A stretch of 63,903 bases of DNA, the filler included, from Octopus bimaculoides (Eukaryota): NCBI RefSeq assembly GCF_001194135.2. It is 6 parts of 6 records of this genome, joined end to end, with 100 filler letters (N's around TTAATTAATTAA, not from the genome) between each part and the next. Parts side by side here need not be neighbours in the genome. Positions count along the whole stretch, not along the records: positions 1 to 30,645 come from NC_068996.1; positions 30,746 to 37,582 come from NC_068989.1; positions 37,683 to 43,370 come from NC_069004.1; 3 more parts are not named here. The stretch is one strand, 5' to 3'. Positions 1,546-42,560 of the stretch are shown here, piece by piece; the first letter of the stretch is position 1, and each line of letters starts with the position of its first letter. The translations under genes were made by a program, and so were the position numbers. Below the pieces are notes generated by a model, which saw nothing but the letters and a program-made list of their open reading frames with translations, searched no databases and was not told where the DNA came from.

Positions 1546-2129
1546 CAGTTCTATATTTAAGATATTTGATGGATATTTGTCCTCATCTTGTTTGATGAGG
1601 CTGATATACAACGTTTCGGCTGATATACTCTCCATCCTTCATCAGGTGTCTTGAGGAAATTTCAAACCAGAGTTCTCATTCCTAAGGTATTTTTCGATAT
1701 TATTATTATCGTTATTAGTCAGGTCACTGCTTGGAATCGAACTCAGAATCTTGGGGTTAGTAGCCCATACTCTTAACCACTACACCATATGCGTGTGGGC
1801 AATTATGGAGTGAATTTTAGGGCTTATAAATCTAATATTTTCCTATCCTTCCTTAATATTGGTTCCCATATGCTACTCATATCTGTACTCAGTCTGCTTA
1901 GGAGGTTGTTGTGCCCTAGCATATGTGCTGCTTCTTTTGGATTTCATATTTTCCAGTGGTGTTTTCTGTCTATTATTTTAACTTTATCCCACAGGGGGAG
2001 GTGGTCTCCGTTTTTCCATATTAGATTTATAAGCCCTAAAATTCACTCCATACTTGCCCACAGGCATATGACGTAAGATTCCGAGTTCGATTCGAAGCAG
2101 TGACCTAAATAATAATAACATTGAAAAAT
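1546..2129. mobile_element. Fold-back element family 'C', copy 1: tRNA-like head plus hammerhead motif (left arm minus strand, right arm plus strand and truncated)
   Basis: 1781-1838 and 2018-2075 are reverse complements (54/58 identical). The left arm carries CTGATGA (1645-1639) and GAAA (1617-1614) on the minus strand. It shares its left end cagttctatatttaaga with the copies at 21212 and 41635. Confidence 0.85.
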
Positions 2130-3070
2130 GTGGTGGTGGTGGTGTTAGTGGTAATGGGTTTAATACCATCATCTGAACCTTGTATATTTTTAGCTGAATC
2201 CACTCTATGGAAAGCACTCAGTGAAGGCATCTAGTTTTAAGCATGTAGGTTTTAAGCAGGTAAAAAGACAGCAGGTATCAGCTGGAGAGAGGAAGTTTTG
2301 GTAACTATTACGACTGCTTGCAACTAAAGAGTCTGAGATATGATACTGTACAAACTGGATACATTTTTTAAATAGCCTTACAGTTCACAGTTGCTAGTTC
2401 AAATCTAGGCAGGATTTTTCAATATCCCAGAAAAAGATTCCCTTAAGATTTTCTTTTTCTTTTCTTTTTTTTTTTGTGAATTTTAGAATTCCTTTTAGAT
2501 GAGGGTGTAGGGAAAGATGGATGAGAGTAAGAGCTGTTAATATTCACTTATGATTGTTACAATTTAATGTTTATGGTGTGTAGAGGAGCATGGTCAAGAT
2601 GGTAGAGACCCGATAGGATGTAGTACTGAAGAATAATGACTGGATTGAAGGAGTGTGTGTGTGTATAAAGCATAGTGGGAGTATTAAGTGGAGGGCTTTA
2701 TTAGGTGGTTGTGTATGGATTTCAGAAGATTAGAAGCTAATAGAAATTATAATAGAAAGAACGAGGGAAGAAACAATCCAACATTATAGTTTGTTGTTAA
2801 GTAACAAGACACAAGCTTTTACACAGTTGTTTATTTTATTGTTTCTTAATACCACAGTTTGTTAGTGGTTGTGGGTATAAGTGGTTTTTCTGTAGTGAAA
2901 GTCTACCACCATATACAATAAGGGTTTTTGTTCAGTGAACAAGCCCTTAGAGTTTTCTTTATATATGAGATCCTCTGTCCAACATGGAAAACAGACATCA
3001 AATGTTGATAATAATAATAATAATTCATTTTGCAAGATTCTTGATGTGAAACCGTGTGTAGAAACAGATA

Positions 3071-3317
3071 TTGTTGTATTTGGGGATGGTCATGTTGCCA
3101 GTTTAGCCTATAAAAATACAAAATGGCTGAAAGGAAAGACACACACATAAGAAAGAAGAAAGCAAAGGACCATTGATGAGGTCACGAAAGAACTCTGGCC
3201 GAAATAGGATTAATGTAATATAATGTAATATAAAGCTGAAGCAAATTAACATCAAATATATAGTGTGTGTGTTTTTATTGGCTAAACTGGCAACATGACC
3301 ATCCCCAAATACAACAA
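3071..3317. mobile_element. Fold-back/MITE-like element with 38-bp perfect inverted arms
   Basis: 3071-3108 ttgttgtatttggggatggtcatgttgccagtttagcc is the exact reverse complement of 3280-3317, and the match extends imperfectly inward about 12 nt. Confidence 0.85.
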
Positions 3318-3609
3318 CAACAACAATAATAATAATGATAATGAGTATGATGATTCAAAGCTGGGTTATTTGCAAGGACCTGAAGTGGAGTTTTGCCACA
3401 AGCCATGAATTGTGGTTTCTCTCATCCTCTCTTTCTGCCAGTCTTAGAGGTTCTGTTGGGCATCATCGTCATTGTTGCTGTTCTTGATTTTAAAAAAACC
3501 TAAGAACAGTGGTGTAACCATTGTCATTTTACTGCTTAGAAACAAAAGCATTTGTTTTTGTACTTAAATCAATTAATATTTTTTTCCACTTTAATTCATA
3601 TCATACCAG

Positions 3610-3778
3610 GTTTAAATGAAGGAGTCAATGATGAGATAACATCCTCAGTTATTCCTGCAACTACTACCAAACCGAAACGACCATCTTTGTCAAAGATCAT
3701 TCTTTCTTTGGAATCTGATGCCAGTAAACAACAAGCTTTGAACCATATACTCACTGCTCTACAGATCAAATACGCCAG
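3610..3778 (+). CDS. HERC2: HERC2 exon 2 in window
   Basis: ccag|GT...GCCAG|gtgagt. GLNEGVNDEITSSVIPATTTKPKRPSLSKIILSLESDASKQQALNHILTALQIKYAR matches HERC2 RPSL.KI.LSL...KQQAL.HILTALQI.YAR. 169 nt, phase 1 to 2. Confidence 0.95.
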
Positions 3779-3989
3779 GTGAGTGACTTCAGTGTTCACA
3801 CCAAATTATGACTTCATTATATATTTTTTAAATTTCCACTATCTATTTCTTCACAGCCCCTAGTGATTATTTCTTTCTGTCTCGTCTAAATGTGAGTAAC
3901 TTTGCATCTCCTCTACAAGAAGTTGCTCTGCCCCCATCTCCTTCTTTCATACTTGTTCTCACACTGTGTGTGTGTTTGTGTGTTACTGT

Positions 3990-4149
3990 CTCGTTGCAAC
4001 CTTATTAGTCCTGGTATCAAAAAAACAGGCACTAGATGGGCAGCCAGCTCTAGAAACAATGCCAAAGCAGACATTGGGGTACAATGTTGTCCTTGGACCC
4101 ATCTCTGTCAAACAATCCAACCTGTGCCAATATGGAACATGGACATTAA

Positions 4150-4183
<34 letters not shown>

Positions 4184-4597
4184 GTTTCCAATTTCAGAAT
4201 CACTGATTATTCATAAATATTTCTTTCTTTTATTATTCTTGCTTGCTATGCTCAAGATATCCTGTGCCTTGCTGTACATAAGAAGACCTGTCCACCACAG
4301 CAGAATTGATATCCTGGTGGGTTTTTTTGTCTTGGAAATTACTTGGTGACCCTGTTGGTGCTGGTGCCACATGAAAAGCACCCATGCCAGTGCCACATAT
4401 AAAACACCTGTGCCAATGCCATGTAAAAAGCACTCTGTAAAGTGGTTGGCATTAGGAAGGGCATCCAGCTGTAGAAACTATGCCAGAACAGATGATGAAG
4501 CTTGGTACAAACCCTGACTCTACAAGCTACCATCAAACCATCCAACTCATGCCAGCATGGAGAATGGACATTAAATGATGATGATGATGATGATGAT
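3990..4597 (+). mobile_element. Two short elements ending in the RTE-type 3' tail (...gcatggagaatggacattaaa(tga)n); 5'-truncated LINE ends or tail-sharing SINEs
   Basis: Match the 3' end of the RTE LINE at about 16670-16844 (ttaggaagggcatccagctgtagaaact...gcatggaaagcagacattaaacgatgatgatg). More copies at about 5690-5890(+), 6625-6776(+), 14098-14250(-), 14611-14790(-), 25871-26080(-). Confidence 0.8.
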
Positions 4598-4645
4598 TTA
4601 ATAACTTATATATTACAACATAATATTCATCATCATAATTATTAT

Positions 4646-5083
4646 GGTGGCAAATAGGCAGAACCATTAGCACACTGGGCAAGATTCTTAGCGATTTTGT
4701 CCACCTCTATGTTCTGATTCAAATTCTGCTGAATTTGACATTGCCTGTCATCCTTTCAGAGGCAATAAAATAAGTGCCAGTTGTGCGTTGGGGTCAATGT
4801 AATTGACTTGCCCCTCCCTTGAAACTGCTGGTCTTGTGCCAAAATTTGAAACCATTATTATTATTATTAAGGTGGTGAGCTGGCAGAATTGTTAGTGCGC
4901 TGGATGAAATGCTTAGCAATATTTTGTCCGTCATTATTTTCTGAGTTCAAATTCTGCTGCAGTTGACTTTATCTTTCATCCTTTCAGGGTCAATAAAATA
5001 AGTATCAGTTGAACACTGGGGTCAATGTAATCAACCCATCCCCTCTCTTGAAACTGTTGGCCTTGTGCCAAAATTTGAAACCA
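4646..5083 (+). mobile_element. Two tandem tRNA-headed SINEs, family 'B' (4646-4856, 4871-5083)
   Basis: Head ggtggtgagctggcagaa, B-box-like gagttcaaattc, core gactttgcctttcatcctttc.gggtc.ataaa. Other copies: 17478-17665(+), 26275-26480(-), 28610-28745(+), 36989-37140(+), 39215-39405(+), 51899-52126(+), 62106-62255(+), 62263-62428(+), 63520-63730(-). Confidence 0.85.
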
Positions 5084-5171
5084 TCATCATCATTATTATT
5101 ATTATTGGTAGTGGTACTGGTAATGGTGGTGGTGGTGGTGATATTTACTGTTGTTATTATACTTGTTGTAG

Positions 5172-6804: not shown

Positions 6805-6843
<39 letters not shown>

Positions 6844-7296: not shown

Positions 7297-7328
<32 letters not shown>

Positions 7329-7586: not shown

Positions 7587-7886
7587 ACATTTTGTCCTGG
7601 AGAAATATCATCTTTTCCAAGTATGCACAGTTTGGCTGCAAAAGTTTCCCCTGCAACTAGCATAATTGCTGAGACATTTACCTCACCTGATCAAGTAACG
7701 AGTACTTTGGAAATCATAAAGCCAGCTTATCCCGAAGGCCTCGATGAGTTCACCAGCAAACTGACTGCTGACGATGCAAGAGTTCTTGTTGATCTTCTTA
7801 AACTTGCTGTTGCAAATCGAGCTGGTGAGAAAGGGAAGGATACACTAGCTGGTATCTTAAAAGCCGTTGACAAGGCGTATCCTCAG
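7587..7886 (+). CDS. HERC2: HERC2 exon 4 in window
   Basis: ttacag|ACA...CCT CAG|gtaagt. ...SIIAETFT...LDEFTSKLTADDARVLVDLLKLAVANRAGEKGKDTLAGILKAVDKAYPQ. 300 nt, phase 0 to 0. Confidence 0.95.
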
Positions 7887-8390
7887 GTAAGTTCTTTCAG
7901 TCTTGTCCGTTGAATCCATGGTAAAATTGGTGAGTATTTTTGTATGTGTGTGTATTGTATTATGTATGTTATTGTAATGTGTGTGTATGTGTACTTTGTT
8001 GTTTGTGCGTGGCATTGTTGTATGAGTGTGTTATGTATATCTTGTAAATGTAGTGTACTCTAAAACTGTCTGTGTATGTGACAGAGAGAGAGAGAGAGAT
8101 TTTATATTTTCACACTATTGCTGTTTTGCTCCTAACCGAAATATTCCAACTATTAGAAACCCAGTCCACATAACTGTTAACAGACAACCATTGTATATAG
8201 TTTGTTGCCTCATGCAGAGTAACTTTGTTGAATTAGTCAATATATCTTAACTTACAGTACATTGTTTAGCACCTCAGCTAGAGAAAGCTCTCAGAATCTG
8301 TTGCTATAAATTTCACGATTCCTTTGGAAATCGATTAAATTCAGTTTTCTCCTTTTTTGTGTGTGTGAAAAATTTACTTCTATTGTGCAG

Positions 8391-9074: not shown

Positions 9075-9169
9075 AATATTTGACACAGCAGAATATGTAT
9101 TGGTCACTTACATAAATCATATAGTATAGGGAGGAATCACATATTCACAATGACTGGCATAGCAGCATA

Positions 9170-11802: not shown

Positions 11803-11836
<34 letters not shown>

Positions 11837-14001: not shown

Positions 14002-15504
14002 CCTGCCAAAAGTTTATTTATGTCTCCTTTCAGTATTTCTTAATCCTTTTGTTTCTAGTTTCTCTCCATTTTCTTCTGTGCTTCATTTTGTCATCATCAT
14101 CATCATTTTAATGCCCATGTTCCATGTTAGCATGGGTTGGATGGGGTTCAATAGGTTACAACATGCTGCATCAGGTCCCATTGTCAGTGTTGGCATGGTT
14201 TCTATGGCTGGATACCCTTCCTAATACCAACTACTTTACAGGATGTACTGTGTGTATTTTACCATGGCATTGCCGCTAGTGAGGTTGCTATGCAGCTTGC
14301 AAGACTATGAACCCTAAGAGGAGAGGGGGAAATTGTATGTCAATAGCATAATGAGTAGAGAAGAGGAATATGTATGAGAGAAAGGGCCAGAGCAGAATGA
14401 TTTTCTTGCTGTAGAACACCTGACTACTCATATTTTAGAACAGGTGTGTGGATGGGAGTAGAGCTGCAAAGTGATATATGTCTTATTTTCTATTATTATT
14501 ATTTTTTTACCCCAAGCCTCTCCACTGCTTTTGTTTCTTCTGGTGTTTCTAGTTGCCAATTTTGCAGCACTTTACCTTCTTCTATCCAATTCATTGGCTT
14601 CCTGTGACATCATCATCATCATCTTTTAACGTCTGTCTTCCATGCTGGCATGGGTTGGATGATTTGACAGGAACTGACAAGCTAGAAGCTGCACCAACCT
14701 CTTTTGTCAGATTTGGCATGGTTTCTATGGCTGGATGCTCTTCCTTATTGCAACCACTTCACAGAGTGTAACTGAATGTGTTTTACACAGCACAAGCACT
14801 AACAAAATCTGTTTGGCATAGTTTTTAGATAATCATTTTTTTTTTTTTTTTTTTGGTGCAATTCCTTGTTCAACAGTTTCTCTGAATTTCTCAGATTATC
14901 ATTATCCATTTTATTTACAATTACTGATTGTATATTTCACTTACACTCCTTCGATATTCTCATATCATTCACATACTTCATTTCATCTCTTTCTTTTTAT
15001 CTTGTAGTTCTCTTATTTTTTACCTCCAAATCTGCCTCCACTTCTCTCTTATACATACACACTCATTTTGCTTTCATACATGAATTTCTCTTTCTATATC
15101 TCTCAATCACTCACTTCCTATACTTCTCTTATTTCATCATATTATATCTCTAATTCCTTTTGTCTCGTGTAACACTTTTTTCCATCTCTCTGTACATTTC
15201 ACTGTCTGCACCTAGCTGTTGGATGATTGCATACAGTTTCTTTCCTCAACCCTTTCTGTCTGTTCCCTCCCATTCTCTACAAAAAAGACAGCTACTTTAT
15301 ATTTTAAGCCATGATAAAACTGAGAAGTCCATTGAATAGGAGTGGATGCTTGCATGTGTGATGCACGTATGTACACACATCTGAATATGTGTTCATATAC
15401 AGCTAAACACATATTTATATATAAGTATATATATATATATATATATATATACTTATACACATATGTATGTTCGTGTATGTATGTATACACACACACATAT
15501 ATAT

Positions 15505-16844
15505 AAACAAAACACAAACCCCTTCAGGTAGATGGCCCTGCTCGATCTGTAGAAAAGGCGTGGGTAGGAACTCTATAAGATGCACCCAGTGCAAGCTATG
15601 GACACATAAGAGGTGCAGCAATATCAAAGGAAGGTTAACTAGGAAGTTAGTTTTCGTTTGTAGCAGATGTTCAGGAGCTATAAACACTGTGAATGTGCAG
15701 AAAACAACTTCTGCCACATTCCAGGGAGAAAAACTAGACGTAGTTGATAGCTTCTGCTATCTAGGTGACCAAGTTAGTAGTGGGGGAGGGTGCGCTGAAA
15801 GTGTAGCTGCTAAAATAAGAATAGCCTGGGCAAAGTTCAGAGAGCTCTTACCTCTGCTAATGACAAGGGGCTTCTCACTCAGAGTAAAAGGCAGACTGTA
15901 TGATGCATGTGTACGAACAGCCATGCTACATGGCAGTGAAACATGGGCTGTGACTGCTGAGGACATGTGTAAGCTCGCAAGGAATGAAGCCAGTATGCTC
16001 CAATGGATGAGTAATGTCAGTGTGCATACTAGACAGAGTGTAAGTACCTTTAGAGAAAAGTTGAACATAAGAAGCATCAGTTGTGGTGTGCAAGAGAGAC
16101 GATTGCGCTGGTATGGGCATGTGGTGAGAATGGATGAGGATAGCTGTGTGAAAAAGTGCCACACCCTAGCAGCTGAAGGAACCTGCAGAAGAGGTAGGCC
16201 CAGGAAGACCTGGGATGAGGTGGTGAGGCACGACCTTCGAACATTGGGCCTCACCGAGGCAATGACTTCTGAATGAGATCTTTGGAAATATGCTGTGTGT
16301 GAGAAGACCCGGCAGGCAAAGTGCGACCTAAATCCAAAGCCTCTGCCAGGATGCCTACCTTCCTACGTTGGACACTAAACTCCACTTGCGAAGACCTGTT
16401 GAGGCAAGTGAAATCGAACTAATTATGATGGATGGCACCCACGCCAACGTCGCCTCCTTCATTGGACACAGAAACTTGGCTTGCAAAGACCTGTTGATGC
16501 AAGCTAAAGCGAAATCATGATGGCACCTGTGCCAGTGGCACGTGTAAGGACATTCGAGCAAGATCGTTGCCAGTGCCGCTGGACTGGCTCCCATGCAGGT
16601 GGCACATAAAAGACACCATTTTGAGTGTGGCTGTTGCCAGTACCACCTGACTGGCCTTCATGCCGGTGACACGTAAAAGCACCCACTACACTCTCTGAGT
16701 GGTTGGCGTTAGGAAGGGCATCCAGCTGTAGAAACTCTGCCAAATCAGATTGGAGCCTGGTGTAGCCACCTGGTTCACCAGTTGTCAGTCAAATTGTCCA
16801 ACCCATGCTAGCATGGAAAGCAGACATTAAACGATGATGATGAT
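15505..16844 (+). mobile_element. 5'-truncated RTE-clade LINE (PHD-like finger, RT C-terminus, 3' UTR, (GAT)n tail)
   Basis: ORF 15467-16276 (its N-terminus is microsatellite): CSIC..CTQC..HKRC..CSRC, FCYLG, RIAWAKFREL, MLHGSETW, RRLRWYGHVVRM, GRPRKTW. Ends ...cagacattaaacgatgatgatgat. Confidence 0.92.
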
Positions 16845-20770: not shown

Positions 20771-21290
20771 TTATATATATATATATATAATTCAAAATAT
20801 AAACAATATTAAACCATAAAATAAATTTTTATTCTTCAAAATGAACCAAAACTAACTATAAAATGGAAAATAACGTTTATTTTTGTATACTTCCACTTTA
20901 TTTATATTTGAAAAGTTTTCTATTTGTTTAAATTGCAAAGTCTTTCATCAGATCCTCAAAATTCATCTCATGTAACAGATCTAGTTTTGTACTTAGTGGA
21001 GATAGGGCATTCTGAATATTGTTTTAGCATTTAAACTGGCCATATCCAGCTGAAATATTCTACTTGTTTTATGTTCAAAATGGCTAAATCTGGTTTCTCA
21101 CACCAACCCTACAATATATCATTCTAAAAATTAACAGTTACCTCATCAAAACTTCAAAGCTACAAGATAGTATATGATTTAATTCAAAACAATGTGAATG
21201 AAAATCTATTACAGTTCTATATTTAAGAGATGAGGAATTATGTACATTATTTACATTTGACGGATATTTGTCCTCATCTTGTTTGTTGTT

Positions 21291-21336
21291 AACACAACGT
21301 TTCAGCTGATATACCTTCCAGCCTTCATCAGGTGTC
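21291..21336 (-). ncRNA. Minimal type I hammerhead ribozyme motif (best-preserved copy)
   Basis: Minus strand: GACAC-CUGAUGA-A-GGCUG[GAAGGUAUAU]CAGCU-GAAA-CGU-U-GUGUU. Stem I GACAC/GUGUU, stem II GGCUG/CAGCU, palindromic ACGU as stem III. Related motifs at 1606-1650(-), 24149-24194(+), 41821-41863(+). Activity untested. Confidence 0.7.
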
Positions 21337-21545
21337 TTGGGGAAATTTCAAACCTGGGTTCTCATTCCTAAGATATTTTTTTCAATGTTATAATTATTAT
21401 TGTTATTATTATTCAGGGCACTGCCTGGAATCAAACTCGGAATCTTGGGGGTTAGTAGCCTGTGCTCTTAACCACTACTAACACCAAGATTCCGAGTTCA
21501 ATTCCAGGCAGTGCCTTGAATAATAATAATAATAATTATCATTAA

Positions 21546-24110
21546 TTTGCTTTATTGGCCACAAGTGCTAATATCAATCAAAAACATGTAAGGACAAAGA
21601 CAGGACGGAGGACACAAAAGGTTTTGTCCGAAAAGTAGAAAAACGATTGTGTAAACAGAGGAAGAAAACGGTAAAAGATATAACAAATAAATAAATGAAT
21701 AATAAATAAATAAATAAATAAAACTCCCAAAAGGGGTAGGCACTTCGAAAAAGAAAACGTTACTCGTGGAAAAACCCATAACACCATGGGAGCCTGGTCA
21801 GAAAGATAAGAAAGAGGTTATAGAGCCCTTTCTCCTTTTACATTACTTTTTTTCCTACAGGTGTGTTCTCAGAATTGGTCCGTTTATACTGGCCATTCTT
21901 CCAACAGTCACCCATCTTTCAACAAATTTGCTATGAGACAGCACTTCCCTCTCTACTCTCATCCTCCTTTTCAAGTGGAACTTGAAGAAGTGGATGAGGC
22001 CTTGGCCAAAGAGGAAAGTGTCTGCCTTTAGCCCTTTCAAACGGATCCACCATACCACCTCTTTCGCTACAGCCACTAGGCATAGGAAAATTGCCTTGCT
22101 CTCTCGGTTAAAGGAGGTTGGCTGGTCAATCCTCACGATGGATTCAGCTGATAGCTGGATCCGTCCTACACGTGACAGTAGCTGTTCGACATAAACCCAC
22201 AGGTCAGCAATACTCGGGCACTGGACGAGTGCGTGCAGAACGGTTTTGTCGTCCTGAGCGCATCTTGGGCAGGCCCAGTTGACGGCACTTCCGTGCCGGT
22301 ATAGTTTATCTCGAACAGGTAGCGCACCTCAGTAGCACTGCCAGGTGAAGGACCTTTGGAAATTTTCCATGGGCTTCGGCCCGAAAGTTTAACTGATTAT
22401 CTTTGNNNNNNNNNNGCTAGAGTGGAGCTACTACCGATCGCACTGCCCGCCTGACTGAGGGTGGTGAGAGCTTGGCGGCACTCGAGGTGCGAAGCGCCCT
22501 TTCTCGGTCTACGTTTGATCCAGGATTGCAGCTCTGTTAAAGAAACGAGCTGCAGAAAATCGCATCTCATGAACAGCGACCACACTTGTTCACCGTCCAG
22601 GAAATGCTTGAGATGTCATAGCCTGAGCGCATGTTTGCACATCAGTAGCCACGGCATGCCAAGGCCTCTGTTCAGCGGCTGTTGACAGCAGATGGAGTGC
22701 CTGACCAGTGGTACCTAACCCTTCCACAAAAAGTCGAAGAGCAAGCGTACTATCTTGGTTAACCAGCAGTCGGGATAAGGGACGACGGTCAAGCGGTAAT
22801 AGATGACGGATGTGATGTACACATTCGCCACCTCCGCTCGACCTTTCAAGGGGAGCTTCCTCTCGGCCCATTTCTGGGTGAGATTGGCCACCCTGTTCGT
22901 CACTTCTTCCCAGTTTTTCTCCAACTGGAGGTCCGGACTGAACCAGACGCCGAGCAGTTTAACGGGTCCGTCTGTCCAGCACCCTACGATGGTGTTGGAC
23001 GGCATGGACTTGCCCCTCCAGGTGCCTAGTTGCAAGCCCACTGACTTTTCCACGTTAATTTTCGCACCTGTCACCGCTTCATACTCATTTAGTGTCTCGC
23101 CAATCAGGTCAATATGCTTGTGGCTCGACACCATCACGGTGACGTCGTCGGCATAGGCAGACATGCTCTTCCCACATCCCAGATCGCGCGGGACACCCCT
23201 CAAAGCCTCCAACTTCCGCAGTAATGGCTTGAGAGTCAACACATACAGAAGGGAGGAGAGAGGGCATCCTTGGCGAACCGAACGCGAGATGTTGAACGGT
23301 TCCGGTAGATGGCCGTTCACCTGTATGACCGAGCAGATGCCGCTGTATAAAGCAGCTATCCACCTGTGGAAGACCAGACTGAAGCCAGCTGTCTTGAGAA
23401 CAGCTGCCAGGTATCGATGGTCGACTCTATCGAAGGCTTTAGACTGATCTAAATTGATCAAAGCCCCACCCACATCAGCTTTGTTACTCACCCTCTCTAT
23501 GATGTAGCGCATGAGATGGAGGTCGTTGTGGATAGACCTGGTCAGCACGGCGCATGTCTGTGCCTTGNNNNNNNNNNNNNNNNNNNNNNNNNNNNNNNNN
23601 NNNNNNNNNNNNNNNNNNNNNNNNNNNNNNNNNNNNNNNNNNNNNNNNNNNNNNNNNNNNNNNNNNNNNNNNNNNNNNNNNNNNNNNNNNNNNNNNNNNN
23701 NNNNNNNNNNNNNNNNNNNNNNNNNNNNNNNNNNNNNNNNNNNNNNNNNNNNNNNNNNNNNNNNNNNNNNNNNNNNNNNNNNNNNNNNNNNNNNNNNNNN
23801 NNNNNNNNNNNNNNNNNNNNNNNNNNNNNNNNNNNNNNNNNNNNNNNNNNNNNNNNNNNNNNNNNNNNNNNNNNNNNNNNNNNNNNNNNNNNNNNNNNNN
23901 NNNNNNNNNNNNNGATCTACCTCTCGTGCAGCCTTTCATCGCTTCCTGTACTTCCCAGGCAGATATGGGTCCTTCGCAGCACTCGGCTTCGCTGGTCGAG
24001 AGTTGCGGCAGGCCGTCTAGGTATACACCGAAGTCTGTCCCGTCGTCCGTCCTACCGTTCGTCCCGAACAATCAATCAAAGTGCTGCTGAAAAGCCGCAC
24101 ACATCTGCTT
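21546..24110 (-). mobile_element. Tx1/L1-clade LINE, 5'-truncated ORF2 (RT plus C-terminal CCHC zinc knuckle), frameshifted, partly gapped
   Basis: LDQSKAFDRVDH, SVRQGCPLS, AYADDV, KLLGVWF in ORF 22715-23548. CPRCAQDDKTVLHALVQC near 22220-22280. AATAAA close to the 3' end at about 21551-21556. Confidence 0.92.
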
Positions 24111-24425
24111 ACCTTAGGAATGAGAACCCAGGTTTGAAATTTCCCCAAGACACCTGATGAAGGCGGGAGGGTATATCAGCTGAAATATTGTGTTGACAAC
24201 AAACAAGATGAGGACAAATATCCGTCAAATGTAAATAATGAAAATGCATTACTTTTGACAGAATAATGTAAATGCTAAAGGGTTAAAGTTTTTTTTCTTT
24301 TGTGCTGTAAACTATTTACCATTCCTGTAGTGCTCCACTTCCCTTGATACCCTACGCGTGTGCTTATTTTGCTTAATTGGTGATCCAGTGCTGCTTATAA
24401 CACCTTCCAGTTTACTTGATATTAT

Positions 24426-24821: not shown

Positions 24822-25600
24822 CAGGGGTTGGACAAAATAATGGAAATACCTTAAAATTTCAAACAAATTTATCTTAATATGGGGTAGGACCGCCTTTGGC
24901 AGTAATTACATCTTGAATTCTATGAGGTATGGACTTGTACAAAGTTTGAATTGTTCCCAAAAGAATTTTTGTTCATTCTTCAGCTAAAACAGTCTCCAGT
25001 TCTTGTAGTGATGATGGTGGNNNNNNNNNNNNNNNNNNNNNNNNNNNNNNNNNNNNNNNNNNNNNNNNNNNNNNNNNNNNNNNNNNNNNNNNNNNNNNNN
25101 NNNNNNNNNNNNNNNNNNNNNNNNNNNNNNNNNNNNNNNNNNNNNNNNNNNNNNNNNNNNNNNNNNNNNNNNNNNNNNNNNNNNNNNNNNNNNNNNNNNN
25201 NNNNNNNCTGGGGACTGTGGTGGCCAGATAAGATGTTCAACTTCACTAGAATGTTCCTCGTGCCATTCAGTTACAACTTTAGCTGTGTGAATTGGTGCCT
25301 TATCATCCTGAAAGATTGCGTTTCTCTCCGGAAACAGTTCTACAACCATAGGATGAATTTGATCAGATAAAATGCTTAAATAGTCTTGACTATTAATTCT
25401 ACCATGAAGGGAAACCATTGAGCCGGCAGATATCCAAGATATAGCCCCCCAGATCATCACAGATCCTCCTGCATATTTAACAGTTGGAAGAAGACAGTGT
25501 GGGTCAAATGCTTCTTTTGGCTGTCTCCACATGTCAACCACTTTACAGTGTGCTGGGTGTTTTTCTAGCACTAGTGAAGTCACTAAATAACTTGCAAGAC
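24822..25600 (-). mobile_element. Tc1 (DD34E-type) transposon fragment
   Basis: PTVKYAGGSVMIWGAIS...AIFQDDKAPIHTAK...LIWPPQSP. One end reads TA|CAGGGGTTGGACAAAATAATGGAAA, inserted in the TA tract of a family-A SINE. Confidence 0.9.
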
Positions 25601-31569: not shown

Positions 31570-31906
31570 GGAGGCGCAATGGGCCAGTGGTTAGGGCAAC
31601 AGACTCGCAGTCGTAGGATCGCGGTTTCGATTCCCAGACAGGGTGTTGTGAGTGTTTATTGAACGAAAACACCTAAAGCTCCACGTGGCTCCGGCAGTGG
31701 GTGGTAGCGAACCCTGCTGTACTCTTTCACTACAACTTTCTCTCACTCTTTCTTCCTGTTTCTATTGTACCTTGTCACACTCTGTGTCACGCTAAATCTC
31801 CCCAAGAACTACGTTAAAGGTACACGTGTCTGTAAAGTGCTCAGCCACTTGCACGTTAATTTCATGGATCAACTGGATCCCTCGTCATTGTAACCGACGG
31901 AGTGCC
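31570..31906 (+). mobile_element. tRNA-headed SINE, family 'D'
   Basis: ggcgcaatgggccagtggttaggg (A box) ... ggtttcgattccc (B box). Copies at 40707-41030(+), about 57790-58200(-) and a tail fragment at 31289-31333(-). Confidence 0.85.
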
Positions 31907-33811: not shown

Positions 33812-34177
33812 TATATTTATATATATATATATATATNNNNNNNNNNNNNNNNNNNNNNNNNNNNNNNNNNNNNNNNNNNNNNNNNNNNNNNNNNNNNNNN
33901 NNNNNNNNNNNNNNNNNNNNNNNNNNNNNNNNNNNNNNNNNNNNNNNNNNNNNNNNNNNNNNNNNNNNNNNNNNNNNNNNNNNNNNNNNNNNNNNNNNNN
34001 NNNNNNNNNNNNNNNNNNNNNNNNNNNNNNNNNNNNNNNNNNNNNNNNNNNNNNNNNNNNNNNNNNNNNNNNNNNNNNNNNNNNNNNNNNNNNNNNNNNN
34101 NNNNNNNNNNNNNNNNNNNNNNNNNNNNNNNNNNNNNNNNNNNNNNNNNNNNNNNNNNNNNNNNNNNNNNNNNNNNA

Positions 34178-35276
34178 TTTGTTGATGAAGGTCTGGATCT
34201 TCTTGTAGTTGCTGCAGGTGGCTCTCCATGTTTCAGAGCCATACAAAAGCACAGATTTTACGTTTGAACTAAATAAGCGAAGTTTAGTTCGAGTTGAGAT
34301 GGCAGTAGACTTCCATACCGGCCGAAGAATAGCGAAGGCTTGCCAAGCCTTCTTGCTTCTTGCAGTGATGTCCTCGTCTGATCCACCTGATTTGCTGATA
34401 TTGCTGCCAAGATAGACAAACTCACTAACGTCCTCCACAGGTACCCCCCCCCCGATTGTGATTGGCTCTTCTTGCTTGTTGTTGATACGCAGTACTTTTG
34501 TATTTTCCTGGCTGATCCTCAAACTCACTCGCCGTGAAGTTTCTCTTAGGTGGTCTACCTTATCTTGCATATCTTGCATATCTTGCAGGCGATGTGACAG
34601 TAGCGCGAGATCATCTGCGTAATCCAGGTCCTCCAACTTGTTCATCGGTGTCCACTGAATACCTTTCCCGGAGGTAGCGTAGGCCGTCCTGGTGAGCCAG
34701 TCCAGCACAACGAGGAACAGGATCGGTGACAACAAACAGCCCTGTCTGACTCCCGTGCTGACCCTGAATTCCTCCGACAATGGATGACCTGGCAAGAAAA
34801 CTCGTAGAGTAATCGAATAATGCCCACGATCTTCTCTGGCACACCATAGTGTCGTAAGATGTCCCAGATTGTCTGCCTGTCTACGCTGTCAAATGCTTTT
34901 TTCAAAGTCGACGAAGCACACATAGAGTGACGTTTGCCATTCCATTGTCTGCTCAAGATGATTCTGAGTGTCACAGTCTGGTCCATACATGATCTCTCCT
35001 TTCTGAAACCTGCCTGCTCATCTCTGAGTTGCTTCTCAATGGTATCTTTCAATCGCTCCAGGATGATTCTTGTAAGGACTTTGCTTGGAATGGAAAGCTA
35101 GGTAATTCCCCCTCCTCTTTTCGCATTGTGATAAATCCCCACTCTTCGGCAGCTTCACCAAAAGACCCTTCTTCCAGTCAGTTGGGATCTTCTCTGTCGT
35201 CCATACCAGGTTCAGCACATGGTGCATATGATCGATCATCTCTTCTCCTCCTGCCTTCAGTGCCTCTGCTGGTATG
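34178..35276 (-). mobile_element. RTE-clade LINE RT fragment (second RTE family, no PHD insert), frameshifted, bounded by gaps
   Basis: IPTDWKKGLLVKLPK, EQAGFRKERSC, GVRQGCLLSPILF, LDYADDL, FVYLGS and LLYGSETW spread over three frames. Confidence 0.93.
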
Positions 35277-37689
35277 NNNNNNNNNNNNNNNNNNNNNNNN
35301 NNNNNNNNNNNNNNNNNNNNNNNNNNNNNNNNNNNNNNNNNNNNNNNNNNNNNNNNNNNNNNNNNNNNNNNNNNNNNNNNNNNNNNNNNNNNNNNNNNNN
35401 NNNNNNNNNNNNNNNNNNNNNNNNNNNNNNNNNNNNNNNNNNNNNNNNNNNNNNNNNNNNNNNNNNNNNNNNNNNNNNNNNNNNNNNNNNNNNNNNNNNN
35501 NNNNNNNNNNNNNNNNNNNNNNNNNNNNNNNNNNNNNNNNNNNNNNNNNNNNNNNNNNNNNNNNNNNNNNNNNNNNNNNNGGGGCGAGAGAGAGAGAGAG
35601 AAAACAGACAAACAGATACTTGCATACATATATATATATACATTCATGCATATACAAACACACAAATACTTCTCATTTTTGACATGAGAAAATCTTAAAC
35701 GCACAGTTGACTTGAGAATGTGAGCTTGTTTATAAAAGCAAATATTTCTCAGAAATTATCGTGTGAGGTGGATTTTTTTAAATGCCTACTTTTGCTGTTT
35801 TTTCTTTCTTTAAGCCTGTTTTGTTGTTCTTATTCTAGGTGGCGTCAGAAAACGCTTGCGGTTTCAGTTTAAAATAGCAGCCACTACTCCTTTAACTGAC
35901 ATCTAGCTTTAGCATGCCAGCATTTCATATGTCACCGTTGCGTTTTTACTCAGCTTAGCAAAAAAATTTATTGCATAGCTAACGTCCAAATTGCCATCAC
36001 GTCCCGACTGCATTTTGCGAACAAGTCAGTTTTAATTAGGAGTGATTAGTAGGGTGTGTTCAAAGTAGAGTAACAACCGTCTCCTTCAGTCTGGAATAAC
36101 AAAAGTTAACAGATCGGCTTAGGAATATCATTGGATCTGTCCAGCGCTTCTCATCACTTTGACATTTAGTGAATATGTTTTCTTTTTTATCTTTATAGTA
36201 AATATTCGACACGATCACTGACATTTTTGCTCTGTAGCTATTAGATTTAAACAAATATGATGAAAATATATGCAGGGTGGGAGTGAAGAGCATTAAAGAC
36301 CAGAATCTAGTCTGTGGACAAAAGGCTTTGTTACTTAAAGCTTGATTTTTTTTTCAATAGAAAGACAGAAATGGAAGAACGACTTCAAGGTAGTTTGGCA
36401 CCAATGTGAGAAAGAAAACTTTGTAGGCGCTCTTCCTTAAGCAAATCTACGAATTTTGTCGATATTGTTCTCTAGCCTTAGGTAATCCCTGGCCATGTAG
36501 ACCTATGGTTAAAAGCATTCTGGTCATGCCCACCCTGTCTTATTTTCAGGCAAAGGCTGTCTAGAAAGACAGTTGGATATGATTTAAGTGAGATTTCGTT
36601 ACTATTTCTAGCTTCCCTAGTGGATTCATCAAGTTAATACTAATTTTAGAATTGACCACTTTGTGTGAATAGCCAATACATTGTCCCTTACAATGCAAAA
36701 TATTTCGTTCAAATAGGAATATTTCATGCCTAAACGAATTTCTCTTCTTGAAAGAGAATATTTTTCTTCAAAATTCTTTCCTTCTCTTTCTTTCAGAATC
36801 ATGAAAACTATTTCCTTTGTATCATAATACTGGCTTACAGTTTTATTAATATCGTCTGTGAAATCGTACAGTTAATTCAACAGGTTGGTATAGTTTGAAC
36901 TTTCATATTCGAAAGGATAATGTGTCAAATTTCTTAAACCATATCCATCAGTATTTGTTTCAGTTTCAGAACAATATTCCATTTAATGTTACGTTCTGAG
37001 TTCAAACTCCGCCGAGGTCGACTTTGCCTTCATCCTTTCGGGGTCGATAAATTAAGTACCAGTTGCGTATTAGGGTCAATCTAATCGACTGGTCCCCTCC
37101 CCAAAAATTTCAGGCCTTGTACCTAGAGTAGAAAAGAATGTTCCAGTTAATGTGGATTAATGGTTGTCAAAATTAACTTATCCAGCCGACAGGTCTGCCT
37201 TATCCGTCGTCGATGTACTGAAGTACTTACAAACAACAATGTCTACTTTGTCATTCATTCAAAGCAAATGTGATTTCATGGAAGAAGGCAAATGAAAGAA
37301 GTGGGAAGTGAAAAAACTTTATCTTCGGTTTTCAGCTCTTGGTGGAATCGTTGGCGTGTCATCATCAAATCAATGCACTTCTAAATCTGGCAGAGCCTAT
37401 CTCCATCCGGGTTTGACGACAGCCAATTTTTTTCCAAGGATTAAGACAGAGAGGAAGAGAAGGAGGGGAGAGACGAGAGGGGGGAAGAGGAGGGACGAAG
37501 AGAGAAAGACAGACAGACAGAAAAAGAGGAAGAGTCACTCCCAGTATTACACTGTTACTTTAGCGGCTCCAGAGGGATGAAANNNNNNNNNNNNNNNNNN
37601 NNNNNNNNNNNNNNNNNNNNNNNNNNTTAATTAATTAANNNNNNNNNNNNNNNNNNNNNNNNNNNNNNNNNNNNNNNNNNNNCATACAC

Positions 37690-38790: not shown

Positions 38791-38829
38791 ATCTGAATTT
38801 ATTTAGTCTGTACATGGAACCATTCATGA

Positions 38830-39110
38830 AGAACTGAACGTACAGTTTGGAGTTGGTGTGGCTAATGTACATGGAACCATTCATGAAGAACTGAATATGC
38901 ACAAAATTCGTTTGCAGGTTGCTCAGTGATGAGCATCAAAATTGTCATTGCCCCTCCCTACAGTCCAGACCTTGTTCTTTATGGCTTTTATTTGTTCCCA
39001 AGCTGAAGGGAGCAGTGACAAGGGTCCCGGACACCTTCATGAAATGGTAACAGCACTATAATAAGTGCATTGACGTCAGAGGTTAAGGTTATCTTTAGAG
39101 ATTCTCTATA
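38830..39110 (+). mobile_element. Decayed mariner C-terminal fragment
   Basis: cctccctacagtccagaccttg (PPYSPDL), ttcccaagctgaag, aagtgcattgacgtcagagg (KCIDVRG). Confidence 0.6.
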
Positions 39111-41099
39111 GAAATTAGAGTCAATACAGAAAGTTGCAATGTTTTGTATATGAATATGTCTTTGTAAACAATGCGATCGATGGAAAAAAAAATAGGTAAT
39201 TAGCATATGGTTAAGGTGGTGAGCTGCCAAAATTGTTAGTGTACTGGGTTAAATTCTTAGTGGTATTTCATCTGCTGCTACGTTCTGAGTTCAAATTCCA
39301 TCGAGGTCGGCTTTGCCTTTCATCTTTTCAGGGTTGATAAATTAAGTACCAGTTGCGTACTGAGGTCAATGTAATCAACTAGTCTCCTCCCAACAAACTT
39401 CAAGACTTCTTGCTCCTTCATCAGCAACCATCCAATTCCATTAACCATCCTCAAATACTTTGCTTAAACAGCTTCTAAATATAGCTATGGCTTTGTGGTT
39501 CGAGTATTTGGCTCACAATGGTAAGGCCGCGAGTTCAATTCCCAGCATTGCTTTGTGTCCTTCAACAAGACACTTTATTTCACGTTACTCCAGTCCATTC
39601 AGCTGGCAAAAGTGAGTGGGACCTGTAATTCAAAGGATCAGCTTTTGTTACATTCTGTGTCAGGCTGAATCTCCCTGAGAACTACATTTTGTGTCTGTGG
39701 AGTGCTCAGCCACTTTACTCTTTTACTTGTTTCAGTCATTTGACTGCGGCCATGCTGGAGCACCGCCTTTAGTCGAGCAAATCAACTCCAAGACTAACTC
39801 TTTGTAAGCCTAGTACTTATTCTATCGGTCTCTTTTGCTGAACCGTTAAGTTACGGGGACGTAAACACACCAGCATCAGTTGTCAAGCAATGTTGGCGGG
39901 ACAAACACAGACACACAAACACACACACATATACACGACGGGCTTCTTTCAGTTTCCGTCTACCAAATCCACTCACAAGGCTTTTGTCGGCCCAAGGCTA
40001 TAGTAGAAGACACNNNNNNNNNNNNNNNNNNNNNNNNNNNNNNNNNNNNNNNNNNNNNNNNNNNNNNNNNNNNNNNNNNNNNNNNNNNNNNNNNNNNNNN
40101 NNNNNNNNNNNNNNNNNNNNNNNNNNNNNNNNNNNNNNNNNNNNNNNNNNNNNNNNNNNNNNNNNNNNNNNNNNNNNNNNNNNNNNNNNNNNNNNNNNNN
40201 NNNNNNNNNNNNNNNNNNNNNNNNNNNNNNNNNNNNNNNNNNNNNNNNNNNNNNNNNNNNNNNNNNNNNNNNNNNNNNNNNNNNNNNNNNNNNNNNNNNN
40301 NNNNNNNNNNNNNNNNNNNNNNNNNNNNNNNNNNNNNNNNNNNNNNNNNNNNNNNNNNNNNNNNNNNNNNNNNNNNNNNNNNNNNNNNNNNNNNNNNNNN
40401 NNNNNNNNNNNNNNNNNNNNNNNNNNNNNNNNNNNNNNNNNNNNNNNNNNNNNNNNNNNNNNNNNNNNNNNNNNNNNNNNNNNNNNNNNNNNNNNNNNNN
40501 NNNNNNNNNNNNNNNNNNNNNNNNNNNNNNNNNNNNNNNNNNNNNNNNNNNNNNNNNNNNNNNNNNNNNNNNNNNNNNNNNNNNNNNNNNNNNNNNNNNN
40601 NNNNNNNNNNNNNNNNNNNNNNNNNNNNNNNNNNNNNNNNNNNNNNNNNNNNNNNNNNNNNNNNNNNNNNNNNNNNNNNNNNNNNNNNNNNNNNNNNNNN
40701 NNNNNNGTTTCGATTCCCAGACCGGGCGTTGTGAGTGTTTATTGAGCGAAAACACCTAAAGCTCCATGAGGCTCCGGCAGGGGATGGTGGCGAACCCTGG
40801 TGTACTCTTCCACCACAACTTTCTCTCACTCTTACTTCCTGTTTCTGTTGTGCCTGCAATTCAAAGGGTCAGCCTTGTCACACTGTGTCACGCTGAATAT
40901 CCCCGAGAACTACGTTAAGGGTACACGTGTCTGTGGAGTGCTCAGCCACTTGCATGTTAATTTCACGAGCAGGCTGTTCCGTTGATCGGATCAACTGGAA
41001 CCCTTGACATCGTAAGCGGTGGAGTGCCAACACACACTCACATAGTGATAGAGTTTCATTATTTGGATAAAATATTTTCAGTGAAATTCAGAAACACAC

Positions 41100-42560
41100 G
41101 ATCAGTAAATAATACACGAAGTCACTGAAAAATATGACAGCAACTGTAATTGCCAACAGATCATCATCATCATCAATAAGATGTACACATTCCTTTTTAT
41201 TTTTAATGACTTCAGTACAATCCCCATCCACAAGATTTGACCAATTTCCCACATTGTTCTGACTTAATTCTATTCCATTCTTCCTGAAGTTTTCCCAACA
41301 AACTCATAACATTCGCATGTTGGTGCTCTCTGATCTTATCACCAAATACCTTCCAGAAGTTTTCAATGGGATTATGGTCAGGGCTCTGAACTGGTCAATG
41401 CATCACAGCAAGATTTTCAGCTTCAAACACCTTAACTATTTTCAGCTACATTATTCTGCACAAAGATTGGTTGATGAGTTTGAGATGACCTCATAGCGGC
41501 ACAACATGCTGCAGAATGATGTTTTTGCATATGGCTGCATTGACATTACCATGGATCCAGATCAAAGACCCAAAACCTGTTGCAGAAATCATTCCCCACA
41601 CCATTAAACACCCACCTCCAAACTTCACTGATTTCAGTTCTATATTTAAGAGATGAGGAATTACGTACATTATTTACATTTCACAGACGTATGGTGTAGT
41701 GGTTAAGAGTGCGAGCTACTAACCCCAAGATTCCGAGTTCAATTCCAGGTAGTGACCTGAATAATAATAACATTAAAAAAAACCCTTAGGAATGTGAACC
41801 TAGTTTCGAAATTTCCCCAAGACACCTGATGAAGGCTGGAGGGTATATCAGCCGAAACATGTTAACAACAAAATGAGGACAAATATAGATAATGTTCACT
41901 GATTTCTTCACACATTTAGGGAGCAATCTTTCACTTATCAACGAAACCGAACTGGCTTACATCACTGAAGAACACACATCGCCAGTCGTCGTCCATTCAA
42001 ATTAGACGCTAATTAGCAAAGACTAACCTCACTTTTTGGTCCATCATACTGTGGCGGGGGAACAGGCACGAAGTCCAACTTCCTTCAAATGACAAGCCAC
42101 ACTCTTTTGAGACACATTTATTCTATAATCACAATTTACTCGGTGAGGAATTCCTGCAGCACAATCAAAACAGTCTCTTAATGACAGCCTCTGAATCACA
42201 CAGTTTTGCCAGACACTTGTCTTCCACGGGTCTCGCTAGTTTTTCTAATGACGCAAACAACCTCGTTTCTTCATAAACCTCGAGTATTCTTCAAACAGCA
42301 CTCTTTGATCTGTTAATGTCTCTGGCAATAGCAGAAACTGACATTCCTTCTTTTCTCAACATGACCACTCCTTTCTTGAGGCTTTCATCAACTTTATGTT
42401 GGCTTTCCATGGTTAATAATTCACTGCTGTTCAATATAAACCGCCACATTCTTCTTAGGTCAACTTACTTTACATTGGTTGGAGTGTTGCCAGGTTTCAC
42501 CTTTCGAATTTTACACCATACCATCTCTAATTTTGTCCATCTTGTATTTTGCAAATAAGC
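41100..42560 (-). mobile_element. Tc1 transposase pseudogene interrupted by a family-C element
   Basis: ATG at 42410: MESQHKVDESLKKGVVMLRKEGMSVSAIARDINRSKSAV*RILEVY (in-frame stop). Later LLPKCVKKSVKFGGGCLMVWGMISATG is restored once 41635-41894 and one TSD copy are removed. Confidence 0.85.
41635..41894. mobile_element. Fold-back family 'C', copy 3
   Basis: 46-bp left-end stub in one orientation, then a + strand head (A box 41692-41702, loop CTACTAA, B box 41735-41746), (AAT)n and CTGATGA..GAAA (41826-41857). Flanked by ttcactgatttc at 41624-41635 and 41895-41906. Confidence 0.88.

What the first reader, a model, noticed from the sequence alone, without database searches (positions are those of the whole stretch)
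1546..41894. tRNA-headed, hammerhead-bearing retroelement family (SINE/Penelope hybrid candidate); three insertions in this window
Seen: one family (1546-2129, 21212-24237, 41635-41894) has the sense layout tRNA-like head (A box TGGTGTAGTGG, 7-nt loop CTACTAA, B box GAGTTCRATTCC) - (AAT)n - spacer - GACAC CTGATGA A GGCTG(n10)CAGCC GAAA CGT T GTGTT - tail ending ...cttaaatatagaactg. This folds as a type I hammerhead: stem I GACAC/GUGUU, 5-bp stem II, core CUGAUGA/GAAA, and a loopless palindromic ACGU stem III that can only form between two molecules. The predicted cleavage triplet is GUU. Established: Penelope-like elements carry such minimal hammerheads, which cleave as dimers; tRNA heads supply internal Pol III promoters for SINEs. 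Inference: a non-autonomous Pol III-driven element that uses a Penelope-type ribozyme for end processing and borrows PLE RT/GIY-YIG machinery. I do not know this combination as described for cephalopods. Caveats: no copy is perfect (G-U at the stem II base in 21291-21336, stem II mismatch at about 1635, stem III decayed at 24186 and 41858), and I recognised no PLE ORF here.
Basis: partly seen in the sequence, partly recalled or inferred. Interest (0 to 1): 0.85.

Follow-up and report, generated by a model that had tools for sequence, protein, structure and literature searches.

The report
Penelope retrotransposon with tRNA-derived promoter module
These repeats are the short terminal parts of a protein-coding Penelope-like jumping gene of an octopus-type genome, which carries the usual predicted self-cutting RNA motif plus a piece of a tRNA gene that likely serves as its promoter, so that its truncated copies look like, and may act as, SINEs.

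Summary
The motifs are there, but the family is not a stand-alone SINE. In locus 1 the tRNA-like part lies about 30 nt behind the stop codon of a Penelope-like (PLE) RT/GIY-YIG gene end (82% identical to an Octopus vulgaris gene model). The hammerhead sits inside the start of the same kind of reading frame. All three loci are head-to-head pairs. A 33-nt tail occurs on one arm only, and two loci have 11-bp target duplications: the PLE signature. The repeat is therefore the pseudo-LTR (pLTR) of a Penelope/Poseidon-type element, and its minimal hammerhead is ordinary. The unusual part is a tRNA-derived A/B-box module at the promoter position. It is joined to the gene end in contigs of four runs from three organisms and absent in 0 of 41 distant PLE loci; I found no such case in ten literature searches. 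Many copies appear to begin at this module, and laid depth there is about 4-8 times that of the gene end (rough). Likely mechanism: RNA starts at the module and reverse transcription starts internally downstream, giving SINE-like solo pLTRs. Pol III use and cleavage are untested.

The parts
1824..2018 (-). 3' end of a PLE reading frame (C-terminal part of the GIY-YIG endonuclease), stop TAA at 1826-1824; one in-frame TGA in this copy
   Evidence: 82% to P0001, E 1.6e-22; aligns to the C-terminus of RT + GIY-YIG proteins of 826-868 aa; 46-48 contigs per DNA run go on into further coding sequence at 2020
1722..1797 (-). tRNA-derived module: A box 1787-1777, 7-nt loop, B box 1744-1733; imperfect palindrome at its 5' edge
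   Evidence: (profile of 95 real tRNAs, E 2.7e-6, partly circular); no intact cloverleaf
1697..1719 (-). (AAT)n microsatellite behind the tRNA module
   Evidence: sequence
1546..1679 (-). putative start of the PLE reading frame (ATG 1679) with hammerhead 1650-1605 and a deleted form of the tail region
2018..2129 (+). inverted second arm of locus 1: last codons and stop, tRNA module with internal deletion, (AAT)n; ends before the hammerhead; no target duplication found
21212..21480 (-). solo pLTR arm of locus 2: 5'-clipped tRNA module, (AAT)n, ATG 21365, tail
21291..21336 (-). minimal type I hammerhead (best copy): stem I 5 bp, CUGAUGA, extra A, stem II 5 bp, GAAA, palindromic ACGU, predicted cut after GUU (21296)
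   Evidence: fits the published consensus
21228..21279 (-). predicted stem-loop; the tail-less 3' end (21245) is the last base of its inner loop
   Evidence: 21212-21300: z -2.66, 6 of 200 shuffles as good
21212..21244 (-). 33-nt PLE 'tail', on one arm only
   Evidence: same tail at 41635-41667
21481..24240 (+). inverted second arm of locus 2 (21481-21540 and 24110-24240), tail-less, split by a LINE
21541..24109 (-). unrelated L1/Tx1-type LINE inserted in the (AAT)n of the plus arm (not part of the family)
   Evidence: RVT_1 E 4.7e-21, zf-RVT E 5.2e-6
21201..21211 (+). target duplication of locus 2, left copy (right copy 24241-24251; 9 of 11 letters alike)
41635..41681 (-). short inverted arm of locus 3: 14 nt plus the 33-nt tail
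41682..41894 (+). solo pLTR arm of locus 3, beginning about 4 nt before the tRNA module; A box 41692-41702, B box 41735-41746, hammerhead core 41826, tail-less
41624..41634 (+). target duplication of locus 3, left copy (right copy 41895-41905; 11 of 11 letters alike)

Best explanation
The three loci are 5'-truncated, head-to-head insertions of a protein-coding Penelope-like retrotransposon (likely Poseidon-type) whose terminal repeat holds, in order, the gene's stop codon, a tRNA-derived A/B-box module that likely acts as the internal promoter, the likely start of the gene with a predicted minimal hammerhead inside it, and the two sites where reverse transcription is inferred to begin. Shown: the order of these parts, the PLE insertion signature, the join of module and gene end in many copies, and a preferred 5' edge at the module. 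Inferred, by analogy with anole Poseidon: the element's RT/GIY-YIG protein nicks AT-rich DNA and starts cDNA internally, 79 or 112 nt past the start of hammerhead stem II (the two sites bound the 33-nt tail). On an RNA that begins at the module, the cDNA reaches the RNA's 5' end after about 270 nt and gives a SINE-looking solo pLTR (loci 2, 3). On a tandem read-through RNA it runs on into the upstream gene end (locus 1). The hammerhead would cleave only as a dimer or with protein help, and the inserts came from uncut RNA.
For: Gene end directly before the module. Relatives are single-ORF RT + GIY-YIG proteins of about 770-870 aa. At seven positions (1985, 1946, 1941, 1939, 1891, 1886, 1859) the letter most laid depth carries gives the residue of P0001, and the window copy's stop is a minority letter (72-93% otherwise), so the source was coding (read by hand). 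7 of the 32 contig pieces shown run from inside the module into the gene end, in all four runs, with 13-33 differences from the window copy. Gene start: the 51-codon frame over hammerhead and tail matches the N-terminus of P0311 (E 3e-4; score 63, 0 of 300 shuffles; next best of 24 long proteins x 6 frames was 39). An independent O. vulgaris locus (P0001) fuses the antisense of this family's 3' end to GIY-YIG sequence (12 of 13 residues). Tail, inverted arms, target duplications: as described for PLEs (10.1101/2021.04.23.441226; PMC3846280, which also reports ORF start and 5' palindromes in pLTRs; passages). Stem II to tail end is 112 nt against RT starts 111-118 nt after the same landmark in anole Poseidon (PMC11167929). 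Preferred 5' edge: 118, 92 and 108 contigs leave the reference at 1792 into unlike sequence (agreement 0.44), the locus 3 layout recurs (joint 1594-1792 on opposite strands in 6, 2, 0 and 2 contigs), and depth steps about 4-8-fold in the three genomic-type runs. Boxes kept while the cloverleaf decayed; no run of four T on the sense strand of four segments.
Against: No full-length or tandem copy was seen (no genome held), so the tail-to-gene link rests on homology to 1 of 24 proteins, and a database search with that peptide found nothing. No transcript start, strand or polymerase was observed; contig depth is not copy number. Pol III is held to be unsuited to long coding RNA (PMC10886601, passage), and the one mapped Penelope promoter is LINE-like (PMC2377424, passages); distant PLE frames carry about 4 T4 runs per kb, so the lack of T4 in 221 nt of gene end is weak. 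The 5' edge coincides with a palindrome, and palindromes mark pLTR 5' ends in rotifer Penelope with no tRNA mentioned in the passages I read (PMC3846280), so the edge need not be a start site. Three of four arms have a TGA at codon 6 of the putative start frame (family majority 60-72% otherwise).
Confidence: 0.62

Rival explanations
1. The short copies are a self-propagating SINE subfamily: solo pLTRs are transcribed by Pol III from the module and are re-mobilised in trans by the parent PLE's protein. It can hold together with the best explanation.
For: Depth step and loose ends at the module; ratio of pLTR part to gene end 16 in the run guessed to be RNA, against 3.9, 4.2 and 8.4 in the others; no T4 terminator between module and tail; pLTRs alone sufficed in trans in rotifer Penelope (PMC3846280, passage); pLTR-derived non-autonomous retrozymes (10.64898/2026.07.22.740005).
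Against: Anole Poseidon needs the first 172 nt of its ORF as template, beyond its RT starts (PMC11167929), and solo copies here end at the inferred RT starts. Locus 3 begins with the same few bases that precede the module in the gene-linked copy; no diagnostic differences between short and long copies were seen in six arm pieces. X15 is only guessed to be RNA.
Confidence: 0.33
2. The tRNA piece is a passenger: an old tRNA pseudogene or simple SINE with an (AAT)n tail landed behind the stop codon and was carried along. The element uses a Pol II promoter or read-through, and copies pile up at the module's edge because cDNA folds back at the palindrome there.
For: tRNA + (AAT)n looks like a SINE insertion; the cloverleaf is lost; the palindrome at the edge matches self-priming junctions proposed for Penelope (PMC3846280, passage); no expression evidence.
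Against: A and B boxes and their spacing are kept while stems are broken; the majority letter at 1784 moves the A box closer to tRNA type and none of the 40 variant rows shown falls in the B box (37 rows not shown); the module sits where PLE promoters sit.
Confidence: 0.3
3. The tRNA-like fold is a processing signal (RNase P type) that sets the RNA's 5' end in a longer transcript, not a promoter.
For: Would also give a preferred 5' edge at the module.
Against: Acceptor, D and T stems pair poorly; ARAGORN and a tRNA covariance model do not recognise a cloverleaf (7.5 bits, E 7).
Confidence: 0.06
4. An ordinary DNA MITE with terminal inverted repeats in which the motifs are chance.
For: Inverted ends and target duplications; hammerhead shape alone is not above chance.
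Against: Arms are unequal and joined head to head at varying points, a tail sits on one arm only, and the repeat is fused to RT/GIY-YIG coding sequence.
Confidence: 0.01

Closest known systems
Penelope/Poseidon PLEs, e.g. anole Poseidon PAc (PMC11167929) and Adineta vaga Penelope (PMC3846280)
   Same: RT followed by GIY-YIG, pLTR that holds the ORF start and a hammerhead, 31-40-nt tail on one end, inverted 5'-truncated arm, 8-11-bp target duplications, palindrome at the pLTR 5' end
   Different: a tRNA-derived A/B-box module with (AAT)n between stop and start; the one mapped Penelope promoter is a TATA-less LINE-like one (PMC2377424)
Minimal type I hammerheads of metazoan PLEs (PMC4209133)
   Same: CUGANGA + extra base, G-C first pair of stem II, short stem I, palindromic stem III; exact fit to the supplement's consensus
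   Different: nothing of note; activity not tested here
Schistosoma SINE-like hammerhead repeats (Sm-alpha, Sj-alpha; PMC6765202, passages)
   Same: Pol III-type promoter followed by a hammerhead
   Different: described as non-coding, often tandem, with an active ribozyme that frees copies; here dispersed inverted pairs, a minimal ribozyme, and the same repeat attached to a coding PLE
TRIMp3 elements: Cassandra, Helenus, Ajax (PMC10886601)
   Same: small-RNA-derived Pol III boxes inside the terminal repeat of a retroelement, boxes kept and RNA fold lost
   Different: those are non-autonomous LTR elements whose autonomous partners are expected to use Pol II; here the module is in the pLTR of a PLE and is joined to coding sequence
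Animal non-LTR retrozymes (PMC7229834; 10.64898/2026.07.22.740005)
   Same: short hammerhead repeats related to PLE pLTRs
   Different: tandem arrays, reported without recognisable promoter (PMC7761336); here no tandem array was seen and a tRNA module is present

Membership tests
Canonical EN+ PLE | Single ORF with PLE-type RT followed by C-terminal GIY-YIG endonuclease | tested here: inconclusive
   Only the last 64 codons are in the window; they align to the C-terminus of RT + GIY-YIG proteins (57-65% to the closest long ones). The family's own RT part was not seen.
Canonical EN+ PLE | Inverted 5'-truncated arm at the 5' end | tested here: met
   3 of 3 loci; opposite-strand joints in contigs
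Canonical EN+ PLE | 30-40-nt tail on one end only | tested here: met
   33 nt in loci 2 and 3; partly deleted in locus 1
Canonical EN+ PLE | Short target duplication | tested here: met
   11 of 11 at locus 3, 9 of 11 at locus 2, none found at locus 1
Canonical EN+ PLE | pLTR includes the ORF start and a hammerhead | tested here: met
   (match to 1 of 24 long relatives)
Canonical EN+ PLE | Partial tandem pLTR-ORF-pLTR copies | not testable with these tools
   no genome held; contig pieces short
Penelope/Poseidon clade | No extra zinc finger in the RT-EN linker (unlike Neptune, Nematis); EN C-terminal (unlike Naiad) | tested here: inconclusive
   closest long relatives lack a linker Cys cluster on inspection; the family's own linker and a tree with named references were not available
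Minimal type I hammerhead | Core CUGANGA / GAAA / NUH, extra base before stem II, stems I and II | tested here: met
   family-majority letters restore both stems; best copy 21291-21336
Minimal type I hammerhead | Compensatory changes in stems | tested here: inconclusive
   0 of 10 pairs in 4 arms; too few and too similar
Minimal type I hammerhead | Self-cleavage | not testable with these tools
   needs a bench assay
tRNA-derived SINE | tRNA-derived head with A and B boxes | tested here: met
   a motif taken from the head fell in ARAGORN tRNA genes in 102 of 120 loci; profile match over positions 8-66; isotype not settled (best pairs Asn and Met)
tRNA-derived SINE | Head is the 5' end of the element, with no coding sequence upstream | tested here: not met
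   gene end upstream in locus 1 and in 7 of 32 contig pieces shown; met only for a subset of copies
tRNA-derived SINE | Pol III transcription and independent amplification | not testable with these tools
   contigs show no starts or strand
Non-LTR retrozyme | Head-to-tail tandem units, each with a hammerhead | tested here: not met
   0 of 3 loci are tandem; not excluded elsewhere in the genome
Octopus SINEs OK, OR1, OR2 (Ohshima and Okada 1994) | Sequence identity to those families | not testable with these tools
   paper seen only as a reference title; no Repbase, Dfam or SINEBase sequences on hand

The most novel reading that the evidence does not exclude
A protein-coding Penelope-like retrotransposon has taken a tRNA gene as the promoter of its terminal repeat. 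Because PLE reverse transcription starts internally just downstream, every transcript from that promoter yields a ready-made, promoter-bearing, hammerhead-bearing SINE. This octopus family would be a SINE birth caught with its autonomous parent still attached, and a model for how tRNA-plus-hammerhead repeats such as Schistosoma Sm-alpha arise.
Probability: 0.3. Interest if true: 0.78.

Novelty: new variant of a known kind. Interest (0 to 1): 0.55.

Why it matters
How PLEs are transcribed and which short elements ride on them are open questions: a promoter has been mapped in one Drosophila element in the papers I read, and PLE-dependent non-autonomous elements are argued mostly from co-occurrence and pLTR similarity. 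A high-copy family in which a tRNA-type promoter, the hammerhead, the gene start and both inferred RT start sites lie within about 270 nt, with the coding parent identifiable, makes three things testable on one short RNA: Pol III or Pol II use, the need for cleavage, and trans-mobilisation of a solo pLTR. It also warns that some 'tRNA-SINE' or MITE calls and short gene models in octopus genomes (P0001 is one) are PLE ends.

Tried and rejected
Whole genome not held, so no copy count, end map or full-length copy. Rfam: no hammerhead or tRNA family among 150 of 157 rows shown for the window, and none for 41600-41950. ARAGORN: none; at lowered thresholds only noisy calls. A covariance model from 24 phage tRNAs scored locus 1 at 7.5 bits, E 7. 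blastn of the heads against phages gave only E 0.2-9 matches, some on annotated tRNAs; used as a lead only. An exact 24-nt hammerhead stretch was absent from metagenome, genome and viral contigs; the protein alignment found no relative in viral contigs. The N-terminal peptide found no database hit. My first B-box control missed its positive control and was redone; 40 of 81 PLE loci were left out there (no C-terminal match, or under 400 nt behind it), and only 5 of the 41 kept showed a hammerhead by my descriptor, so many may lack a whole pLTR. A GT...AG pair across the tail (38 nt) was considered as an intron and dropped as too short. The core-like motif at 51154 (-) has no room for stem II. 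PMC5785218 (Lunse et al.) is not held. Look-ups in earlier findings by place and sequence were empty.

Full report
Observation. Each locus is a head-to-head pair of unequal arms. The interval 21541-24109 is an unrelated L1/Tx1-type LINE. No genome is held. For breadth I used public runs: 17 of 24 listed runs, from three coded organisms, hold at least half of 25 sampled words. I laid 4 of them on 1520-2030; 22,051, 16,027, 12,234 and 2,807 contigs were laid (depth is not a copy number).

The missed gene end. The minus arm of locus 1 runs about 220 nt further upstream than the tRNA-like part. Bases 2018-1827 read as 64 codons with one stop inside, ending at TAA 1826-1824. The best database hit is an Octopus vulgaris hypothetical protein, P0001 (82%, E 1.6e-22; 5 of 5 candidates passed). 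A longer hit, P0003, led to 805 relatives at E 1e-20 or better and to full-length proteins of about 770-870 aa. All 12 relatives scanned have RVT_1 and 2 of 12 a weak GIY-YIG match; the alignment shows the RT motifs and the endonuclease with the window peptide at the C-terminus, and the nearest Atlas clusters of P0279 carry RVT_1, some also GIY-YIG. At seven positions the majority letter of the laid contigs gives the residue of P0001, and the stop in the window copy is a minority letter (read by hand), so the source was coding. In each of the three larger runs 46-48 contigs go on at 2020 into sequence that continues the endonuclease frame, and 7 of the 32 pieces shown (of 53,727) bridge module and gene end, in all four runs.

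The missed gene start. From ATG 21365 (-) a frame of 51 codons, with one TGA in this copy, runs through the hammerhead to the end of the repeat. It matches the N-terminus of P0311 (14 of 39 identical, E 3e-4; score 63, 0 of 300 shuffles; the next best of 24 long proteins in six frames scored 39; the other 23 gave no clear match). A database search with it found nothing. This layout is that of anole Poseidon, whose ORF starts inside the hammerhead and whose RT starts internally 111-118 nt later, the tail lying between two start sites (PMC11167929, main text read), and of rotifer Penelope, whose pLTR holds the first 12-22 codons (PMC3846280, passages). [quoted passage not shown] The N-terminus of P0001 is the antisense reading of this family's 3' end (12 of 13 residues): a second locus with an inverted arm fused to endonuclease sequence.

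Insertion signature. A 33-nt tail on one arm only, and target duplications of 11 of 11 (locus 3) and 9 of 11 (locus 2); none found for locus 1. Inverted arms and a 30-40-bp one-sided tail are the described marks of PLEs (10.1101/2021.04.23.441226 and PMC8969392, passages). The repeat is thus a pLTR, and loci 2 and 3 are solo pLTR pairs.

The hammerhead. It fits the published consensus for metazoan PLE minimal hammerheads, including the extra base before stem II and the palindromic stem III (PMC4209133, parts 1-2 of 4 and a supplement passage; one supplement file could not be searched). Majority letters restore both stems (94-99% at 1635). On its own the shape is not above chance, Rfam does not list it, and four arms show no compensatory change. 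Such ribozymes cleave weakly as dimers (PMC4209133), and in anole Poseidon only with protein and without being needed for insertion (PMC11167929).

The tRNA module. The A+B pattern is not found in 40 simulated windows. A motif taken from the head fell inside ARAGORN tRNA genes in 102 of 120 viral loci. A profile of 95 of these matches loci 1 and 3 over positions 8-66 (E 2.7e-6 and 5.3e-5; partly circular, since the motif came from the head). The isotype is unsettled. The cloverleaf is lost. Among 81 distant PLE loci (29-45% identical), 41 had a C-terminal match and at least 400 nt behind it; 0 of 41 had an A or B box or a profile match, while the positive control was found; only 5 of the 41 showed a hammerhead by my descriptor, which weakens this control.

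A preferred 5' edge. At 1792, 118, 92 and 108 contigs leave the reference into sequence that starts with the other half of an 18-nt palindrome and then disagrees (agreement 0.44, median 57-107 nt). The layout of locus 3 recurs as a joint in 6, 2, 0 and 2 contigs. Median depth over module and hammerhead against the gene end is 3.9, 4.2, 8.4 and 16.3, the last in a run only guessed to be RNA; it is a step, not a slope. No run of four T lies on the sense strand of four segments, which is weak given about 4 per kb in relatives.

Mechanism. Shown: order of parts, PLE signature, coding link, preferred edge. Inferred: the module is the internal promoter, RT starts at the two 3' ends, cDNA stops at the RNA's 5' end (solo pLTR) or runs into the upstream gene end on tandem RNA. 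Against: Pol III is thought unsuited to long coding RNA (PMC10886601, passages); D. virilis Penelope has a LINE-like internal promoter (PMC2377424, passages); palindromes mark pLTR 5' ends in rotifer Penelope anyway. Whether solo copies multiply on their own is open: pLTRs sufficed in trans in rotifers, but anole Poseidon needs 172 nt of ORF, more than solo copies keep.

What is known. Hammerheads in pLTRs, pLTR-derived retrozymes (10.64898/2026.07.22.740005, parts 1-3 of 5; its supplements are closed; PMC7229834 and PMC7761336, passages), Pol III promoter plus hammerhead in Schistosoma (PMC6765202, passages) and tRNA boxes in LTRs of TRIMs are all described. Penelope is listed as abundant in coleoids (PMC8967140, passages), and 235 hammerheads were counted in giant squid (PMC6962438, passages). 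Ten full-text searches and passages of PMC9115989 and PMC4758252 showed no coding PLE with a tRNA-derived module in its pLTR. Repbase, Dfam, most subscription papers, Lunse et al. and Ohshima and Okada 1994 could not be seen, so the family may be catalogued. Three earlier AI notes of this scan report non-coding tRNA-bearing repeats with PLE-type ends in other animals (unchecked); this family would add a case with hammerhead and coding parent.

Verdict. A new variant of a known kind: an octopus-type Penelope-like element, ordinary in ribozyme and insertion marks, unusual in its tRNA-derived module. Interest 0.55; 0.78 if Pol III use and SINE-like spread of solo pLTRs are shown (probability about 0.3).

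Noticed in passing
window 21541-24109 (-): L1/Tx1-type LINE (RVT_1, zf-RVT) whose 3' end abuts the (AAT)n of the PLE arm, so it likely targeted that microsatellite; gaps of N inside.
   Followed up: partly
window 1340-1545: Locus 1 is inserted at the end of another repeat with 4 more matches in the window (72-86% alike), probably a SINE tail.
   Followed up: partly
window 58276-58338 (-), 39497-39548 (+), 31575-31636 (+), 47632-47694 (-): Other tRNA-like heads, belonging to different repeat families that share a body segment; unrelated to the PLE module.
   Followed up: partly
P0001 (Octopus vulgaris gene model, 120 aa): The model is read across a PLE inversion junction: antisense of the 3' end, then endonuclease; probably not a host gene.
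   Followed up: yes
window 15425-16273 (+), 33812-35755 (-), 24987-25484 (-): Other transposon fragments: a PHD-bearing LINE-like frame, RT-like frames (by eye), and a DDE_3 (Tc1-like) frame.
   Followed up: no
window 44315-45085: Long tandem repeat with a unit of about 30 bp, open in frames on both strands.
   Followed up: no
window about 7600-7910 (+): Exon-like peptide; recalled, not tested, as resembling the ubiquitin ligase HERC2, which would place these insertions in or near a host gene.
   Followed up: no
window 51154 (-): Hammerhead-core-like letters with no room for stem II; likely chance.
   Followed up: partly
L081 454-1680: A contig of a bacterial MAG carries a PLE frame followed by a minimal hammerhead; likely animal host DNA in the bin.
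   Followed up: no
L001 about 2060: Distant PLE locus with a hammerhead-like motif of the U3-A8 core variant behind its frame.
   Followed up: no
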